Below are positions 7,196 to 37,598 of a stretch of DNA of 64,000 nucleotides, one piece after another. The position numbers and the translations under genes are program-made. The notes beneath the pieces were generated by a model, which worked only from the letters and a program-made list of their open reading frames with translations, made no database searches and was not told the DNA's origin. Location: positions 75,923-139,922 of the forward strand of contig CAYRRP010000001.1 of NCBI GenBank assembly GCA_964426735.1. The letters run 5' to 3'. Position 1 is the first letter of the stretch. The number at the start of each line of letters is the position of its first letter. This stretch comes from an uncultured Candidatus Saccharibacteria bacterium (GTDB lineage: Bacteria > Patescibacteriota > Minisyncoccia > Phycocordibacterales > DATDWN01).

Positions 7196-7678
7196 ATGCA
7201 AATAAAATCACAATTCACTGATAATGGGAATATAGCACAAGTGGTATATGAGGATTGTGACTCTTTTAACCATCTTTTATCAAAAAAAGTGACACAAGTA
7301 TACGCTATCTGTTTCCTAGATGACAAAATGCTAGTTGTTCACAATAAACATGCATGGGGTTTAGTTGGTGGTGGTCTTGAACCAAACGAAACATATGAAG
7401 AATGTTTGAAAAGAGAAATAAAAGAAGAATCAAATATGAGAGTTCTTTCTTTTGCACCTGTAGGTGCCCAAGAAGTTCAATTTGATGGCAAAATAATCTA
7501 CCAACTTCGTTATGCTTGCATCATTCATCCATATGGTGATTTTGTCTCTGACCCAGACGGAGATGTATCTGAAATTAAACTAATTGATTCAAAAGATTAT
7601 AAAGAATATTTTGACTGGGGTGAAATTGGAGAAAGAATCATAGAAAGAGCACTCGAACTTAAGAATAAATTAGCTTAA
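7196..7678 (+). CDS. NUDIX hydrolase (paralog 1)
   Basis: Nudix box GGGLEPNETYEECLKREIKEESN. Shares the C-terminal block PYGDFVSDPDGDxSEIKLID with the ORFs at 7686 and 11897. Confidence 0.8.
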   Translation: MQIKSQFTDNGNIAQVVYEDCDSFNHLLSKKVTQVYAICFLDDKMLVVHNKHAWGLVGGGLEPNETYEECLKREIKEESNMRVLSFAPVGAQEVQFDGKIIYQLRYACIIHPYGDFVSDPDGDVSEIKLIDSKDYKEYFDWGEIGERIIERALELKNKLA

Positions 7679-30771: not shown

Positions 30772-31368
30772 ATGAATAACAAGAAAGTTTCTTTTACTGT
30801 TTCAGTATTCCTTGTATTATTTCTGTTACTCTCAAAATACATAGGGTACCCCTATGTAAAAGAGATGCGATCTCAAGTGTCAGCTATAGTACAGGCTCAA
30901 GTTGAGGCAGAGAATGTTTCAACAACAACTCCTGTATATCCCATAAAGACTGAAGATTTGTATGTTGTCTCACGTGTAGTGGATGGAGATACGATTGAAG
31001 TGATTCGCGATAACGTGAAGGAAAAAGTACGCTTGATTGGTGTTAATACTCCAGAGACTGTGGATCCACGAAAAAAAGTGGAGTGTTTTGGAAAAGAAGC
31101 CTCTGCTCATGCGAAAGAAATATTACTTGGTCAAAAAGTGAAACTTGTGTCTGATGATACTCAAACAAAATACGATAAGTACGGTAGACTTTTGGCGTAT
31201 GTATACACAGACGATGGGCTATTTATAAACAAACACATGATCAGTGAGGGGTATGCGTATGAGTATACCTACAGAGTGCCGTATCTTTTTCAAAATGAAT
31301 TTAAAGAAGCTCAAGTAAAAGCTCAAACTCAAGGGAAGGGTTTGTGGAGAGCGGGAATGTGTGAGTAA
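30772..31368 (+). CDS. secreted/membrane-anchored thermonuclease (SNase-like)
   Basis: N-terminal signal/TM segment. VVDGDTIEV ... RLIGVNTPET ... matches the staphylococcal nuclease catalytic core. Palindrome copy 2 lies inside its N-terminal coding region (YIGYPYV). Confidence 0.8.
   Translation: MNNKKVSFTVSVFLVLFLLLSKYIGYPYVKEMRSQVSAIVQAQVEAENVSTTTPVYPIKTEDLYVVSRVVDGDTIEVIRDNVKEKVRLIGVNTPETVDPRKKVECFGKEASAHAKEILLGQKVKLVSDDTQTKYDKYGRLLAYVYTDDGLFINKHMISEGYAYEYTYRVPYLFQNEFKEAQVKAQTQGKGLWRAGMCE
30838..30858. repeat. 21-nt near-palindrome (copy 2, inverted orientation of copy 1)
   Basis: TACATAGGGTACCCCTATGTA, the reverse complement of copies 1 and 3. Embedded in nuclease codons 23-29. Confidence 0.8.
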
Positions 31369-31394
31369 AACTGAGTGATGCAAGGTGATTGAAC

Positions 31395-31445
31395 TATTAC
31401 GGTACTATTGACAGATAGTAAAATAATAGTACGCTACTATAGTAC
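31395..31445 (+). promoter_or_regulatory. operator-like inverted repeats upstream of the 31482 gene
   Basis: TACTAT-N6-ATAGTA followed by ATAGTA-CGC-TACTAT (GGTACTATTGACAGATAGTAAAATAATAGTACGCTACTATAGTACT). Downstream gene uses a GTG start with a GGAG RBS. Confidence 0.45.
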
Positions 31446-31481
31446 TGATCTTTTTAATTCAAAAAGCCGAGGAGAATGTAA

Positions 31482-32138
31482 GTGCTAAAATTAACCTGGA
31501 AAGATGTTCCGAACTTTGCGTTCAAGATTCATGTTCAATTGTTTGTCCGTAAGGCGACGTATGAACATGGGAGTCTCAAGAAACTGGCGACGGATATTTC
31601 TAATCGCTACTTGAAGGGGAAAGACTTCGAGTTGATGGTGCAAACCTATCTCGATATCTGCTGGACGATTGACGGCATCAAGACAAAAACCATTGGCACG
31701 GCAGCACCAATTACTCGAAGTAATACACTCATGCAAGCAATTGCAATGGTGTATATGAACGAGAACCCTGTTACTATTGAGCAGTGTGATCAGATCAACC
31801 GATTCGCAGAGAAATGTAAAAACAGCTCAGTGAGTATTCATAATTGGTTTTTCCCCAAGGTCTACACTCTCTGGATGTATGCAAGTTATGCGAGTCAGAT
31901 CAATGATTTTGCGCGCAATCTCGTTGTTGATCCTCAAATAGACGAATCAACGCTCGCATTCCTTTACGAATCTATGAAAGGTGTTGGGGCAGAGATCAAC
32001 GAAATAGTTACTGAACTGTCAATGCTTCGGAAATATGGTGTGAAATCTTCATTCTTTCAGGATGGGATGTTGCATGGTCCGGATGAGGCATGGGTCTTTA
32101 CTGATTTTCATGAACTCATTCCTCAAATTTCTGAATGA
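31482..32138 (+). CDS. hypothetical protein (218 aa), GC-elevated cassette gene 1
   Basis: GTG start with a GGAG RBS at -11. About 42-48% GC against about 30-38% for the surrounding genes. No recognisable motifs. Confidence 0.5.
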   Translation: MLKLTWKDVPNFAFKIHVQLFVRKATYEHGSLKKLATDISNRYLKGKDFELMVQTYLDICWTIDGIKTKTIGTAAPITRSNTLMQAIAMVYMNENPVTIEQCDQINRFAEKCKNSSVSIHNWFFPKVYTLWMYASYASQINDFARNLVVDPQIDESTLAFLYESMKGVGAEINEIVTELSMLRKYGVKSSFFQDGMLHGPDEAWVFTDFHELIPQISE

Positions 32139-32147
32139 CGTCAGTTT

Positions 32148-32840
32148 ATGCCCTCAATTCCACTTGCGGTCGTGAGCCTTTCTAACAAGAGCGATCTCAC
32201 TGAGATTGGTTTTACCACCAAGCTTCATGAGAGTGGTATAGGAAAAATGTCCGGCGCCGGTTCACTATTTACAACCCGCGGATTCATGCATATCGATAGT
32301 AAAGGTGAACTTGACACTTCACCCGGTCTCGGCCTTATGCCTGTTCGAGAAATTTTCGAAAGGCATAACAAGGTTGCATTTTATGAGACCTTACGTTTCG
32401 TGCATGCCATTCGTCTTTACGATTTAGTTGTACCTATAACCACGGTCTCACAGATGCCTCAACCCCTCGTTCCTAAAGGTATTCTCGATCGGCTAAAAGG
32501 TGTCTTGAACAAGAAGCATCTTTTGCAGCTTGACCTTATCATTCCGCGTGTGCGCACTCTCGAGAACGTCGATCAGCTCATTCGTGAGTTGGAAGACGAG
32601 ATCGAGAAAGCAGATACGGAAACCATGGTACGCACGAAACGCGAACTACGACGTCACGAAGTGATCTACCATGTTCGTAGACTTCCCAAAGGTAAGCATC
32701 CAACTGCAGAAGCGCGAGCGCGTGCAGCTGAGTACAATATCGTACTTGCAGATGACGAAACCTTTGTGAAGCCTCACGAGCGTGGTGAAGGTAGTCTTGT
32801 AAAAACACTTCATCAGGCAGTGGTACGCCAGGGTAAGTAG
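32148..32840 (+). CDS. hypothetical protein (230 aa), GC-elevated cassette gene 2
   Basis: Starts 9 nt after gene 1, so an operon is likely. About 48% GC. Charged C-terminal half. No recognisable motifs. Confidence 0.5.
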   Translation: MPSIPLAVVSLSNKSDLTEIGFTTKLHESGIGKMSGAGSLFTTRGFMHIDSKGELDTSPGLGLMPVREIFERHNKVAFYETLRFVHAIRLYDLVVPITTVSQMPQPLVPKGILDRLKGVLNKKHLLQLDLIIPRVRTLENVDQLIRELEDEIEKADTETMVRTKRELRRHEVIYHVRRLPKGKHPTAEARARAAEYNIVLADDETFVKPHERGEGSLVKTLHQAVVRQGK

Positions 32841-32856
32841 CTGTATTTTCATAGGT

Positions 32857-32886
32857 AGGCCCCGCAAAACATCGCGGGGCTTTTCT
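32857..32886 (+). terminator. rho-independent terminator
   Basis: GCCCCGCAAAACATCGCGGGGC followed by TTTTCTG. Confidence 0.75.
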
Positions 32887-32892
32887 GTATAC

Positions 32893-32912
32893 TACATAGG
32901 GGTACCCTATGT
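32893..32912. repeat. 21-nt near-palindrome (copy 3, same orientation as copy 1)
   Basis: ACTACATAGGGGTACCCTATGT lying between two convergent terminators. Confidence 0.8.
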
Positions 32913-32915
32913 GTT

Positions 32916-32958
32916 ATTAAAAAGAAAGCCACCCGAGAAGCAGGGCGCTTTCGGGTGG
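32916..32958 (-). terminator. rho-independent terminator (minus strand)
   Basis: CCACCCGAGAAGCAGGGCGCTTTCGGGTGG with a T-run on the minus strand. Confidence 0.65.
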
Positions 32959-32979
32959 TTACAAGTGTCAGCTAGCAAG

Positions 32980-33285
32980 CTAGCCAAATACTTTTTTGTT
33001 GAACACACTCAGTGTCCAAAGTGTCAGGCCGACTGCCCACACCATCATGCCCGCAATTGGGCCGTGATGTTGTGTGATAGGCCACGACAGAACAAAAAGT
33101 CCTGCACCAATTAGACTTGCGCAAAATAGGCTTGTTTCGCGTATGGTGCTCAGGGTCAGAATGAGTGCAACAGTTGCGGTTACGGTTGGGGCTAGTTGTT
33201 CAGCAAGTTTGAGAAAAAGCCCGAATATCACCAGGGCGTAGGTTAGAAACCCAAGTCCTTGGAGCCAGTCAATTAGGTTTTTCAT
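32980..33285 (-). CDS. small membrane protein (GC-elevated)
   Basis: 101 aa with 3 TM helices. Own terminator. Confidence 0.45.
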   Translation of the reverse strand: MKNLIDWLQGLGFLTYALVIFGLFLKLAEQLAPTVTATVALILTLSTIRETSLFCASLIGAGLFVLSWPITQHHGPIAGMMVWAVGLTLWTLSVFNKKVFG

Positions 33286-33542
33286 GGGGGTCTGTGGTTA
33301 CAATACCACCTATTTTTCATATATGTCAATGATTTTTATTGACAAAATATACAAGAGGTGCTATACTTCTTGGGTAACTAAATCTCATTTTTCTCAGGAG
33401 GTTTCTCTCTGCGCAACGCGCTTTATTGAAAAATTCGAGACCATTTCGCGGTTTGTGTTAAATTAAGCGAAAAAGTTATAAGGGCTCGAATCCTTCAGTA
33501 AATATACAATTCAGTATATTTCTATTAAGTAAAAATATATAT

Positions 33543-34825: not shown

Positions 34826-34930
34826 CCACATTTGGCAAATTTCTTTGTCGAGCGTCGGTAAAATAATTCTCAACGTACGTTAGTACGTTTCCAATTATTT
34901 TCCTAGCTCTTCGCGAACTTTGCTCAAATC
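34826..34930 (+). repeat. ~105-nt intergenic repeat, copy A
   Basis: TTGGCAAATTTCTTTGTCGAGCGTCGGTAAAATAATTCTCAACGTACGTTAGTACGTTTCCAATTATTTTCCTAGCTCTTCGCGAACTTTGCTCAA. Internally palindromic (GAAAATAATT...AATTATTTTC). Confidence 0.75.
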
Positions 34931-34952
34931 TGAAAGTTTTAGGGTTACAACA

Positions 34953-34978
34953 AAAAACCGCCAGGGCGGTTTTTTGCT
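34953..34978 (+). terminator. rho-independent terminator
   Basis: AAAAAACCGCCAGGGCGGTTTTTTGC. Confidence 0.8.
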
Positions 34979-35027
34979 TGGTATAGATTTCCCAGACATC
35001 ATTTATAACTTTTGCTATACTTATTTC

Positions 35028-36206
35028 ATGGAAGGAGCACCAACATCACATTCGGAACGAATATCTGATCGATCTGAAAAGTATCGGGAAATTAGAGAAA
35101 GAATGCGAGAAACTGTCCCTGATGGCGCAATGATATTTGGCGAAGAGGCTCTTGCTGATATAGATATAAATCGAAAAATAGTTAAAGATATAGATGATGA
35201 TCTTGCTGAAGAAACGAATGAAGAGAAAAAAGAAAAATTACTTGACCATAAAATCTTTTTTGAAGGCTGCTGTAAAAAGAGACTCTCGGAGCTTAAAACT
35301 GATATAGAAGATCGGGCCGCTATCGATGCACTACCTTTTTTTGAAACGATATCAACCTCTCCGCATATTGAAAAGTTAGTCAAAGATGAATTGCCGTTGA
35401 TTAAAAAATTGAGCAAGTATGATGCAATTACGCTCTTTGTGTGTACAGTGAATAAAGATATTCCAGATCAATTATTTGAAGAGATGGTGCGGACATATGT
35501 AAACTTTTGGGAGAAAAAGCAGGAAGAATTTCATGAAAAGGCACCGTACATGTTAGCTGAATTTAAAGAAAAAACACTGCAGGCTATAAAAGAAAATAAA
35601 CTACCTATTACTCAAGAGTTATTAGAAGAAAGAATGGATGATACCAGAATCTATTTAGCAGATGCAATGTCTATAGGAGATTGTACGAATGGAGATTATA
35701 GTGTTAAAGAAGGTGTGGTGAGAGTTGCTTATAGAGATGATGAAGAAGCCCAGGAGAAAACTGTCTTTCATGAAATGGTGCACGCACTTTCAGGGCGAAC
35801 AGTAAGACTCAGGAGCGGAGACCTAGATCATCAGCGGAATGGTTTAGTTTTTTGGGTTTATAACAGCAAAGGTAATAAAAGCGGTAAACAATTCAGGTGG
35901 CTAAATGAAGCTGTAACTGAAGAAATTACCATTGAACTTTTGGGAATAGAACCTGAAGATGCTGCATATCCTCGAGAACGAAGGTATCTTCAGGAACTCT
36001 ACAATCAAGGTGTCTCTAAAGAATTGGTTTATGGAGCTTATTTTGAAAATTATGATCCTGATTCTCAAGAAAAAGTTCCTAAATGGAAGGAATTAGTTCG
36101 TCTTATTAAGGATACACATCCAGAAATACCTGATGATAGGGGTGGTGTGGAATACATAAAAAAAGTAGAAGAGGAAATTAAACGAAGGAAAGGTGGTTCT
36201 AACTGA
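35028..36206 (+). CDS. HExxH-motif hypothetical protein (putative metallopeptidase-like)
   Basis: TATACT-N6-ATG leaderless arrangement at 35016-35030. Motif VFHEMVHALSGR; acidic N-terminal third. About 393 aa. Confidence 0.5.
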   Translation: MEGAPTSHSERISDRSEKYREIRERMRETVPDGAMIFGEEALADIDINRKIVKDIDDDLAEETNEEKKEKLLDHKIFFEGCCKKRLSELKTDIEDRAAIDALPFFETISTSPHIEKLVKDELPLIKKLSKYDAITLFVCTVNKDIPDQLFEEMVRTYVNFWEKKQEEFHEKAPYMLAEFKEKTLQAIKENKLPITQELLEERMDDTRIYLADAMSIGDCTNGDYSVKEGVVRVAYRDDEEAQEKTVFHEMVHALSGRTVRLRSGDLDHQRNGLVFWVYNSKGNKSGKQFRWLNEAVTEEITIELLGIEPEDAAYPRERRYLQELYNQGVSKELVYGAYFENYDPDSQEKVPKWKELVRLIKDTHPEIPDDRGGVEYIKKVEEEIKRRKGGSN

Positions 36207-36951: not shown

Positions 36952-37058
36952 GCAATTGAGCAAAGTTCTAGGCAGGCTAGGAAAATAATTGTAGGCGTAC
37001 TCGTTGTACGATGGAAATTATTTTCAGTAGCCTAACAACGAAATTTGCCAAGTGCGGA
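36952..37058 (-). repeat. ~105-nt intergenic repeat, copy C (inverted relative to A and B)
   Basis: The reverse complement aligns to copy A at about 80% identity over about 105 nt (TTGGCAAATTTCgTTGT ... AAAATAATT ... CGTAC ... AGTACG ... CAATTATTTTCCTAGC ... GAACTTTGCTCAA). Confidence 0.75.
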
Positions 37059-37073
37059 AGTTCTAGAAAACAT

Positions 37074-37598
37074 ATGGAGAAAGCTGTATTTGGAGGGGGC
37101 TGTTTCTGGTGTGTGGAAGCTGTGTTTAAAATGCTCAAAGGTGTGAGTGAGGTGTATCCAGGATACGCCGGAGGTACGGTGCCGAATCCAACTTACGAAC
37201 AGGTATGCACGGGAGATACCGGACATGCTGAGGTGGTAGTGGTGGAGTATGATCCTTCAGTTATTAAATATACAGATTTAATGACGGTGTTTTTTGCAAG
37301 CCACAATCCGACCGAGAAAAACAGGTAGGGGGCAGATGTGGGGACTCAGTACCGCTCTGTGATTTTCTATACAACAGAACGGCAAAAAGAAGATGCCTTC
37401 GCGTACATTAAGGAAATAGAGAGTGTGGGTGGAGGTAAGCCAATAGTCACTGAAGTAGAGCCTTTGACCGAAGTATATAAAGCAGAGGATTACCATAAAG
37501 ATTATTTAGCAAATCATCCATCCGCACCGTATTGTCAGATTGTTATTGAACCAAAACTCGACAAAGTAAAAGAGCGATTTGCAAAACTAATAAAATAG
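37074..37598 (+). pseudogene. msrA: peptide methionine sulfoxide reductase MsrA interrupted by an in-frame TAG
   Basis: [12 protein letters not shown] catalytic-Cys motif. ...[25 protein letters not shown] continues in the same frame. The TAG (37326-37328) replaces the conserved Gln (CAG) of the NRQGNDVGTQYRS block. Confidence 0.7.

What the first reader, a model, noticed from the sequence alone, without database searches (positions are those of the whole stretch)
31395..33300. GC-elevated two-gene operon of unknown function with its own operator-like inverted repeats, next to a secreted nuclease
Genes 31482-32138 (218 aa, GTG start, GGAG RBS) and 32148-32840 (230 aa, 9-nt gap) are about 42-48% GC in a roughly 30-38% GC background. 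Neither carries a motif I can assign. They end in a strong terminator and are preceded by two nested TACTAT/ATAGTA inverted repeats (31395-31445). A convergent GC-elevated small membrane protein (32980-33285) follows with its own terminator. A horizontally acquired, separately regulated module of two unknown proteins beside an extracellular nuclease and Gmad2 protein is a candidate for an undescribed system, for example defence, toxin/immunity or nucleic-acid uptake. That functional guess is inference.
Basis: partly seen in the sequence, partly recalled or inferred. Interest (0 to 1): 0.65.

Follow-up and report, generated by a model that had tools for sequence, protein, structure and literature searches.

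The report
One unknown gene broken by a stop
The supposed two-gene operon is a single horizontally acquired gene of an uncharacterised Patescibacteria protein family, cut in two in this strain by one premature stop codon, so it is a freshly broken accessory gene rather than a new two-protein system.

Summary
The ORFs, RBS, 9-nt gap, terminator, inverted repeats and raised GC are all present. But ORF A (31482-32138) and ORF B (32148-32840) are in the same frame, separated only by TGA at 32136-32138. Every close relative reads TGG (Trp) there and encodes one 449-452-aa protein: L007 at 89% identity and four intact alleles at 90-99%. An exhaustive HMMER search found 276 cluster representatives, nearly all about 450 aa and aligned end to end.

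dN/dS against L007 is 0.13-0.14 for both halves. The B half is nucleotide-identical to an intact allele, so the nonsense change is recent. The stop falls inside the predicted central domain.

The gene is strain-variable cargo in a slot between a conserved SNase gene and a DEAD-box helicase gene. That slot holds other single genes in relatives. GC3 is about 2 SD above the window's genes.

The family matches nothing in Pfam, NCBIfam, PADLOC, PHROGs, PDB sequences or PDB/BFVD folds (AF2 pLDDT 81). Its C-terminal ~50-residue module recurs on unrelated proteins. The upstream inverted repeat is not conserved in the orthologue. The nuclease, Gmad2 and small membrane genes are independent of it. Function is unknown; a conflict-related or selfish role is only inferred.

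The parts
31371..32918 (+). Inserted cassette (about 1.55 kb) relative to the empty sites in relatives: promoter, gene, terminator and a second hairpin. It is flanked by an imperfect direct repeat, ATGTGTGAGTAAAA (31357-31370) and ATGTGTTATTAAAA (32909-32922).
   Evidence: Alignment of the window's two junctions with the empty sites of L005 and L006. The repeat matches 12 of 14 positions, read directly from the sequence.
31393..31439 (.). Inverted repeats around the -35 hexamer. The best is a perfect 8-bp pair, GTACTATT (31402-31409) / AATAGTAC (31425-31432).
   Evidence: They are marginally above chance. The left arm is missing in the L007 orthologous locus, so an operator role is unsupported.
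31408..31435 (+). Likely promoter: a perfect TTGACA (31408-31413), a 16-nt spacer and a weak -10, TACGCT (31430-31435).
   Evidence: Read from the sequence. TTGACA is conserved in L007 and L027. A perfect TTGACA lies upstream of the family gene in 11 of 15 loci. The consensus scan did not call it, because the -10 is weak. Promoter function is inferred.
31469..31474 (+). Shine-Dalgarno GAGGAG, 7 nt before the GTG start.
   Evidence: identical in L007 and L027.
31482..32135 (+).
32136..32138 (+). Premature stop TGA. It is TGG (Trp219) in L007 and L027 and in the intact alleles P0153, P0168, P0169 and P0170.
32139..32840 (+). It holds the rest of the central domain, a long acidic helix and the C-terminal ~50-aa basic module.
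32857..32882 (+). Intrinsic terminator of the gene.
   Evidence: conserved in L007.
32893..32913 (.). Second hairpin at the right end of the insert (9-bp stem).
   Evidence: The 120-nt region folds with a z-score of -6.1.

Best explanation
Shown:
- Window 31482-32840 is one gene of about 452 codons, not two.
- In this strain a single G-to-A change at 32138 turns Trp219 (TGG) into TGA.
- The gene belongs to an uncharacterised family of about 450-aa proteins. The members that could be placed come from Patescibacteria (CPR) contigs, and members are almost always single full-length ORFs.
- Both halves evolved under purifying selection until recently.
- The stop lies inside the predicted central domain, between strands.
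- The gene is a self-contained cassette with its own promoter, Shine-Dalgarno site and terminator.
- Its GC3 is about 2 SD above that of the host genes.
- It sits in a strain-variable slot between a conserved SNase gene and a conserved DEAD-box helicase gene. That slot holds different single genes in relatives.

Inferred:
- The copy in this window is a young pseudogene, or at best a crippled split version.
- The cassette was acquired horizontally by illegitimate or homology-facilitated recombination. It carries no recombinase. The flanking direct repeats differ in length between two independent insertions (14 nt here, 87 nt in L030).
- The protein is cytoplasmic. It has an N-terminal helical domain, a conserved alpha/beta core and a basic C-terminal helix-loop module that looks like a nucleic-acid- or partner-binding tail.
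- Its role is most likely in genetic conflict, either defence/abortive infection or a selfish accessory gene. I put this last step at only about 0.25-0.3.
For: One gene, not two:
- A and B share a frame.
- L007 reads TGG at the junction and encodes 449 aa at 89% identity.
- The 90% cluster holds four intact 452-aa alleles on 15 contigs, against the truncated allele on 4 contigs.
- The repaired L001 homologue aligns end to end at 54% identity.
- The exhaustive HMMER search found 276 representatives at E<1e-3, nearly all 435-470 aa and covering query residues ~10-445.

Selection and age of the stop:
- dN/dS is 0.128 for A and 0.140 for B against L007.
- There are 13 nucleotide differences from the intact allele L027, none of them in B.

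Structure:
- The AF2 model has pLDDT 81.4 and pTM 0.76.
- Residue 219 lies in a helix between strands 202-208 and 229-235.

Accessory status and hot spot:
- The gene is absent from L005, L006, L009 and L010, whose DEAD-box helicase proteins are 89-98% identical to the window's.
- In its place those loci carry Myb-like, 134-aa or membrane genes.

Horizontal transfer:
- GC and GC3 z-scores are about 2.
- The gene's GC exceeds that of the surrounding locus in 6 of 7 host contigs.
- The genomic neighbourhood differs in every lineage and there is no conserved partner.
- Published work reports frequent individually transferred genes among Patescibacteria (PMC12455944).

TGA is an ordinary stop here: it ends 10 of 57 ORFs, and no suppressor tRNA is present in the window.
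Against: - The B half is still intact, and an ATG lies 9 nt after the TGA. Termination-reinitiation or fragment complementation could preserve some function.
- There are no expression data.
- The stop was seen only in assemblies (the window and three Logan runs). Reads were not inspected.
- The conflict or defence role rests on context alone. No PADLOC, Pfam or PHROG model matches, and no effector motif was recognised.
- The viral and phage collections lack the family.
- A known defence gene is nearby in only one locus: L028 has a type I R-M system 4-7 kb away.
Confidence: 0.8

Rival explanations
1. A real two-gene operon: A and B are separate, co-translated subunits of an undescribed two-protein system, such as defence or toxin/immunity, controlled by the upstream inverted-repeat operator.
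For: There are two ORFs with a 9-nt gap and an ATG for B. There is a strong Shine-Dalgarno site for A, one terminator, and an inverted repeat over the -35 hexamer.
Against: - The ORFs share a frame and are separated by one stop.
- All orthologues and nearly all of the listed homologues are single ORFs.
- B has no Shine-Dalgarno site.
- The split falls within a predicted domain.
- The inverted repeat is not conserved in L007.
Confidence: 0.07
2. Programmed or tolerated read-through: the UGA is decoded at low frequency, for example by near-cognate tRNA-Trp. This strain would then still make some full-length protein, perhaps as a way to lower the dose of a costly gene.
For: The ancestral codon is Trp (TGG), the amino acid most easily inserted at UGA by near-cognate decoding (established knowledge). 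The B half shows no decay.
Against: - TGA ends 10 of 57 ORFs in the window.
- The window holds no suppressor or Sec tRNA and no Rfam element.
- msrA nearby is broken by a different stop codon, TAG, which points to random nonsense mutation.
- The lack of decay in B is equally explained by a recent mutation.
Confidence: 0.06
3. The family is itself a mobility protein, a new transposase, integrase or homing nuclease. The cassette would be an autonomous one-gene mobile element, or the integrated form of a mini-replicon whose Rep protein binds the upstream repeats.
For: - The gene is solitary, carries its own promoter, and occupies different intergenic sites. In L029 it lies between the RNR small- and large-subunit genes.
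- Presence varies among close relatives.
- Target-derived direct repeats flank two independent insertions: 14 nt here and 87 nt in L030/L035.
- GC is foreign to the host.
Against: - There are no terminal inverted repeats.
- The direct repeats differ in length and were not found in other loci.
- The window holds a single copy, and no locus examined holds more than one.
- No DDE, HUH, Tyr/Ser recombinase or nuclease motif was detected, and no fold match was found.
- The family is absent from viral contigs and phage records. In plasmid records only the C-terminal module matches.
Confidence: 0.07

Closest known systems
Unnamed 'hypothetical protein' family of Patescibacteria, for example MCX6740313.1 (NTZ49_03740, Ca. 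Parcubacteria) and MEY4602701.1 (RL292_642, Ca. Parcubacteria)
   Same: There is full-length homology: 36% identity to MCX6740313.1 and 91% to MEY4602701.1. All family motifs are shared: LRKYGVK, AWV, GEL, YE..R....RLYDLVVP, LPR.R and the C-terminal H.V..H.R.LP.G...S..A...ET.V..H.RG.
   Different: The window copy carries TGA in place of Trp219 and is called as two ORFs. No member has a described function, Pfam model or solved structure.
Variable hot spots flanked by core genes, carrying alternative cargo (for example core defence hotspots of Pseudomonas aeruginosa, PMC10250203, and the variable defence locus of Streptococcus suis, PMC5398294; titles and abstracts only)
   Same: The flanks are conserved (SNase and DEAD-box helicase). 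The cargo alternates among close relatives: this gene, a Myb-like gene, a 134-aa ORF or a small membrane protein. The composition is foreign to the host.
   Different: The slot holds only one or two small genes. None of the cargo matches a known defence family. The host is a CPR bacterium.
Free-standing homing endonuclease genes of phages, for example T4 mobE between nrdA and nrdB (recalled from memory, not tested)
   Same: The lifestyle is similar: a solitary ORF with its own promoter, wedged between conserved genes. In L029 it lies between the RNR subunit genes.
   Different: No HNH, GIY-YIG, LAGLIDADG or PD-(D/E)xK signature or fold was found. The family is absent from phage collections. 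There is no evidence of homing.
Peripheral-subunit-binding domain (PF02817 E3_binding) and other short helix-extended-helix modules (SAP, Rho_N; the latter two from memory)
   Same: The C-terminal module contains PS..AR..A.E.GI.L, which resembles the PSBD signature. Two of 18 isolated modules hit PF02817 at best E=0.0014, and one of 70 full-length members at E=0.0059.
   Different: The hits were scattered and of marginal E-value. The module is flanked by His/Arg-rich strands (H.V..H.R and V..H.RG) that PSBD lacks. It occurs at the C-terminus of otherwise unrelated proteins.

Membership tests
Uncharacterised ~450-aa Patescibacteria family (MCX6740313.1 / MEY4602701.1 type) | End-to-end homology over about 450 residues | tested here: met
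   The joined A+B query aligns over residues ~10-445 to most of the 150 listed hits (E down to 1e-141). It aligns in full with L007 and with the repaired L001 sequence.
Uncharacterised ~450-aa Patescibacteria family (MCX6740313.1 / MEY4602701.1 type) | Conserved residues: K188, R356, A415, T427 and H432 invariant; Y185, G186, W204, G275, Y301, D314, P318, E373, H392, R399, L401, P402, G404, R434 and G435 at >=90% | tested here: met
   All are present in the window sequence, which is the first row of A3.
Uncharacterised ~450-aa Patescibacteria family (MCX6740313.1 / MEY4602701.1 type) | Encoded as one uninterrupted ORF | tested here: not met
   TGA at 32136-32138 replaces Trp219. The window copy is therefore a disrupted member.
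Two-gene operon / toxin-antitoxin-type pair | Two separate genes kept separate in relatives | tested here: not met
   Orthologues and homologues are single ORFs.
Known anti-phage defence families (PADLOC-DB v2) | A significant HMM match of the protein to a defence model | tested here: not met
   There were only three isolated hits at E 0.002-0.01 (PglZ, JetB, PD-Lambda-5_A), each in 1 of 23 members.
Insertion sequence / transposon | Terminal inverted repeats, fixed-length target duplication, recognisable transposase, multiple copies | tested here: not met
   There are no terminal inverted repeats. The direct repeats are 14 nt here and 87 nt in L030, and none were found elsewhere. No transposase domain was detected. 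The window holds one copy.
Homing endonucleases (HNH, GIY-YIG, LAGLIDADG, PD-(D/E)xK) | Catalytic motif or fold | tested here: not met
PF02817 E3_binding (PSBD) | A score above the Pfam gathering threshold | tested here: not met
   Two of 18 modules (best E=0.0014) and 1 of 70 full-length members (E=0.0059) matched, none consistently.
Alternative genetic code (table 4 or 25: TGA = Trp or Gly) | TGA not used as a stop; in-frame TGA at conserved positions in many genes | tested here: not met
   TGA ends 10 of 57 ORFs. Only one gene has an internal TGA, and the other broken gene has TAG. The window has no tRNA with a UCA anticodon.
Operator-controlled (autoregulated) promoter | An inverted repeat over the promoter that is conserved in orthologues | tested here: not met
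   The left arm is absent in L007. Across 15 family loci no shared upstream inverted-repeat sequence emerged, and most loci did not exceed shuffles.

The most novel reading that the evidence does not exclude
The intact family, with a fold that has no PDB or BFVD analogue and a portable ~50-residue C-terminal module shared with unrelated proteins, is a new class of single-protein conflict element. It would be either an anti-phage or abortive-infection protein, or a self-propagating gene cassette. It would spread as a promoter-gene-terminator unit into intergenic hot spots and be readily lost by nonsense mutation because it is costly.
Probability: 0.2. Interest if true: 0.65.

Novelty: new variant of a known kind. 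Interest (0 to 1): 0.33.

Why it matters
- It corrects an annotation trap. Two adjacent 'hypothetical proteins' in public records of this genome (P0167 and P0002) are halves of one gene.
- It defines a sizeable unannotated family: 276 representatives at 50% identity, about 450 aa, with a confident AF2 model and no known fold match. It also defines a separable C-terminal module. Both would merit a Pfam entry and an experimental test.
- It documents a small gene-turnover hot spot in a streamlined CPR genome, and two fresh nonsense mutations within 5 kb. This bears on how such reduced genomes gain and lose accessory genes.
- It does not, by itself, reveal a new system.

Tried and rejected
- **Library scans.** A, B and the membrane ORF were scanned singly against Pfam, NCBIfam, PADLOC and PHROGs, and 23 or 70 family members were scanned as well. 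Nothing consistent appeared. The weak PglZ hit (12-13 bits against a cut-off of 400, in 1 of 23 members) was rejected as noise.
- **PDB sequence searches.** Profile searches with the whole family and with the C-terminal module gave only chance hits.
- **Structure prediction.** AF2 with 3 sequences was unusable (pLDDT 43). With 23 sequences it was good.
- **Viral, phage and plasmid collections.** Viral contigs and phage records lack the family. Plasmid records gave only a Paenibacillus pSC2 protein that shares the C-terminal module.
- **Conserved neighbours.** An all-against-all comparison of ORFs from 15 loci found none. Pfam annotation of the neighbours was heterogeneous.
- **Flanking repeats as a general feature.** They were seen only in L030/L035 and, imperfectly, in the window.
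- **Operator hypothesis.** The palindrome is not enriched in the window, is not conserved in L007, and has no family-wide pattern.
- **Recoding hypotheses.** These were rejected on stop-codon usage, the tRNA scan and the Rfam scan.
- **Link to p428.** Its co-occurrence with the gene (2 of 2 against 0 of 4) was not seen in other family loci, and its composition is native.
Full report
**Observation**

ORF A runs 31482-32138 (218 aa, GTG start, GAGGAG seven bases upstream). ORF B runs 32148-32840 (230 aa), after a 9-nt gap. A strong intrinsic terminator follows at 32857-32882. A convergent 101-aa membrane ORF (32980-33285) has its own promoter-like and terminator-like sites. Composition is raised. 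The joined gene has GC 0.449 and GC3 0.446. For 54 other ORFs in the window the means are GC 0.382 (sd 0.033) and GC3 0.308 (sd 0.063). That is about +2 SD and second of 55. The window averages 38.6% GC, so the contrast is real but smaller than stated. Inverted repeats surround a perfect TTGACA at 31408-31413. The best is GTACTATT(15 nt)AATAGTAC. Only 1-3.5% of dinucleotide shuffles do as well.

**One gene, not two**

A and B are in the same frame. Translating 31482-32840 gives ...HELIPQISE*RQFMPSIPLAV..., with one TGA at 32136-32138. Several lines show that this is a broken single gene:
- A word-based search found almost nothing except a contig (L001) on which the A and B homologues are fused. 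After repair of a one-base frameshift in that contig, the fusion aligns end to end with A+B at 54% identity.
- An exhaustive HMMER search with the joined sequence returned 276 cluster representatives at E<1e-3 and 56 at E<1e-30. Nearly all are 435-470 aa and aligned from about residue 10 to 445.
- The orthologous locus in a related genome (L007, 89% protein identity) reads TGG (Trp) at the exact position of the TGA.
- The 90%-identity cluster holds four intact 452-aa alleles on 15 contigs, all with Trp219. One of them is MEY4602701.1. The truncated 218-aa form is on 4 contigs.
- TGA is an ordinary stop in this genome (10 of 57 ORFs). The window has no suppressor tRNA and no Rfam element.

**Age and consequence of the lesion**

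Against L007, dN/dS is 0.128 for the A part and 0.140 for the B part. The whole gene was therefore under purifying selection. Against the intact allele in L027 there are 13 nucleotide differences. All lie in the A part, one of them is the G-to-A at 32138, and the B part is identical. The nonsense change is thus recent.

An AF2 model built on 23 family members is confident (pLDDT 81.4, pTM 0.76). It shows these parts:
- a helical N-terminal domain (about residues 15-185);
- a central alpha/beta domain (strands between 190 and 271, helices to about 323);
- a long acidic helix (350-388);
- a small C-terminal beta-alpha-beta unit (397-429).

Residue 219 sits between strands 202-208 and 229-235, so the stop cuts through a domain. 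B has no Shine-Dalgarno site. I conclude, by inference, that this copy is a young pseudogene or a badly impaired split version.

**Genomic setting**

Relatives were found through the DEAD-box helicase and are titled Saccharibacteria, Zambryskiibacteriota, Parcubacteria or Patescibacteria MAGs. They keep the order MurB-Ddl-ABC-F-p168-Gmad2-SNase ... DEAD helicase-PdaC-MsrA-MsrB. Between the SNase and helicase genes they differ:
- this gene plus the membrane ORF (the window);
- this gene alone (L007);
- the membrane ORF alone (L006);
- a Myb-like gene of 152-171 aa (L005, L009);
- an unrelated 134-aa ORF (L010).

The slot is therefore a small gene-turnover hot spot. The SNase, Gmad2 and membrane genes are independent of the gene under study.

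Comparison with the empty sites delimits an insert of about 1.55 kb (31371-32918). An imperfect direct repeat of the SNase 3' end flanks it: ATGTGTGAGTAAAA and ATGTGTTATTAAAA.

In other lineages the family gene is again solitary, but it lies in different places:
- between the RNR small- and large-subunit genes (L029);
- next to GAPDH (L030);
- near Y1-transposase-like genes and a type I R-M system (L028);
- next to kinase and phosphatase genes (L001).

No partner is conserved across 15 loci, and the neighbours are heterogeneous. The gene's GC exceeds that of its host contig in 6 of 7 cases. A perfect TTGACA lies upstream in 11 of 15 loci. In L030/L035 an 87-nt direct repeat that carries a promoter flanks the gene. 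No terminal inverted repeats or regular target duplications were found.

These features fit horizontal spread of a promoter-gene-terminator cassette by illegitimate or homology-assisted recombination. This is in line with the reported abundance of individually transferred genes among Patescibacteria (PMC12455944).

**What the protein is**

Nothing known matches it:
- Pfam, NCBIfam, PADLOC and PHROGs gave no consistent hit for single proteins or for 23-70 members.
- PDB sequence profiles gave only chance hits.
- Foldseek against PDB and BFVD gave nothing at E<0.1.
- AFDB could not be searched.

The family has strongly conserved motifs. K188 in LRKYGVK, R356, A415, T427 and H432 are invariant over 70 sequences.

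The last ~50 residues read H.V..H.R.LP.G..PS..AR..A.E.GI.L...ETFV..H.RG. They form a portable module that also ends unrelated proteins:
- freshwater-metagenome proteins with Sel1-like or Trp-rich repeats;
- a 464-aa protein of the Paenibacillus polymyxa plasmid pSC2.

Profile-profile alignment covers only this module (probability 95-97%). Its helix resembles the peripheral-subunit-binding-domain signature, but only marginally and inconsistently. A binding role for this basic tail is inference.

**The operator idea**

The inverted repeat is identical in the intact allele of the same species, but its left arm is missing in L007. The palindrome TACTATAGTA is not enriched in the window. Upstream inverted repeats in other family loci are either terminators of the preceding gene or unrelated in sequence. 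I regard the operator reading as unsupported.

**Function**

No function is shown. The points in favour of a conflict-related accessory gene (defence/abortive infection) or a selfish cassette are these: strain-variable single-gene cargo in a hot spot; foreign composition; a self-contained expression unit; patchy distribution; and easy loss by nonsense mutation. I favour that class at roughly 0.25-0.3.

Self-mobility (a new transposase, a homing nuclease or a mini-replicon Rep) is a weaker rival. The flanking repeats vary in length, no catalytic motif or fold was recognised, and each locus holds one copy.

**Verdict**

The sequence features are real. The 'two-gene operon with an operator next to a nuclease' is not. 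What is there is a recently inactivated copy of a horizontally acquired gene from an undescribed family found mainly in CPR bacteria. Interest is modest for this locus. The family and its C-terminal module are worth cataloguing and testing.

Noticed in passing
window 37011-37598 (stop at 37326-37328): msrA is also interrupted by an in-frame stop. The window has TAG where the L007 orthologue has CAG (Gln), in the conserved NRQGADVGTQYRS stretch. It is the second nonsense-broken gene within 5 kb. Both changes are G:C-to-A:T transitions.
   Followed up: partly
window 34920-36206: This 428-aa ORF has an HEMVH motif and only weak SprT-like/M76 hits. Among close relatives it is present only in the two genomes that also carry the studied gene (the window and L007). 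It is absent in L005, L006, L009 and L010. Its composition is native (GC3 0.263), and it does not accompany the family in other lineages.
   Followed up: partly
window 31369-33340 and L005:9139-9720, L006:4667-5080, L009:5150-5700, L010:9120-9700: The SNase-DEAD helicase intergenic slot is a gene-turnover hot spot. Close relatives carry different single genes there: Myb/SANT-like proteins of 152-171 aa, a 134-aa ORF, and the 101-aa membrane protein.
   Followed up: yes
L030:5949-6035 and 7452-7538 (same in L035): An 87-nt direct repeat (94% identical) brackets the family gene and its terminator. The repeat contains a complete TTGACT-17-TATAAT promoter. The called start of P0158 at 6001 lies inside the repeat and is probably too far upstream.
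   Followed up: partly
L043-L053 (e.g. L044:50-1348, L050:4258-6237) and L055:4831-6225: A second set of proteins shares only the ~50-residue C-terminal module. It comprises freshwater-metagenome proteins with Sel1-like or Trp-rich repeats and WP_013386250.1 of Paenibacillus plasmid pSC2. In the Paenibacillus protein the final H.RG is replaced by Y.AG.
   Followed up: partly
L001:378-870: The contig carrying the fused homologue encodes small ankyrin-repeat-like and F-box-like ORFs upstream. Its GC is mosaic (0.37-0.59). This is unusual for a bacterial contig, and the host was not identified.
   Followed up: no
window 33368-33542: The DEAD-box helicase has a leader of about 175 nt after a near-consensus promoter (TTGACA-17-TATACT at 33339-33367). 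Stretches of this leader recur in L005-L007. No Rfam family matches it.
   Followed up: no
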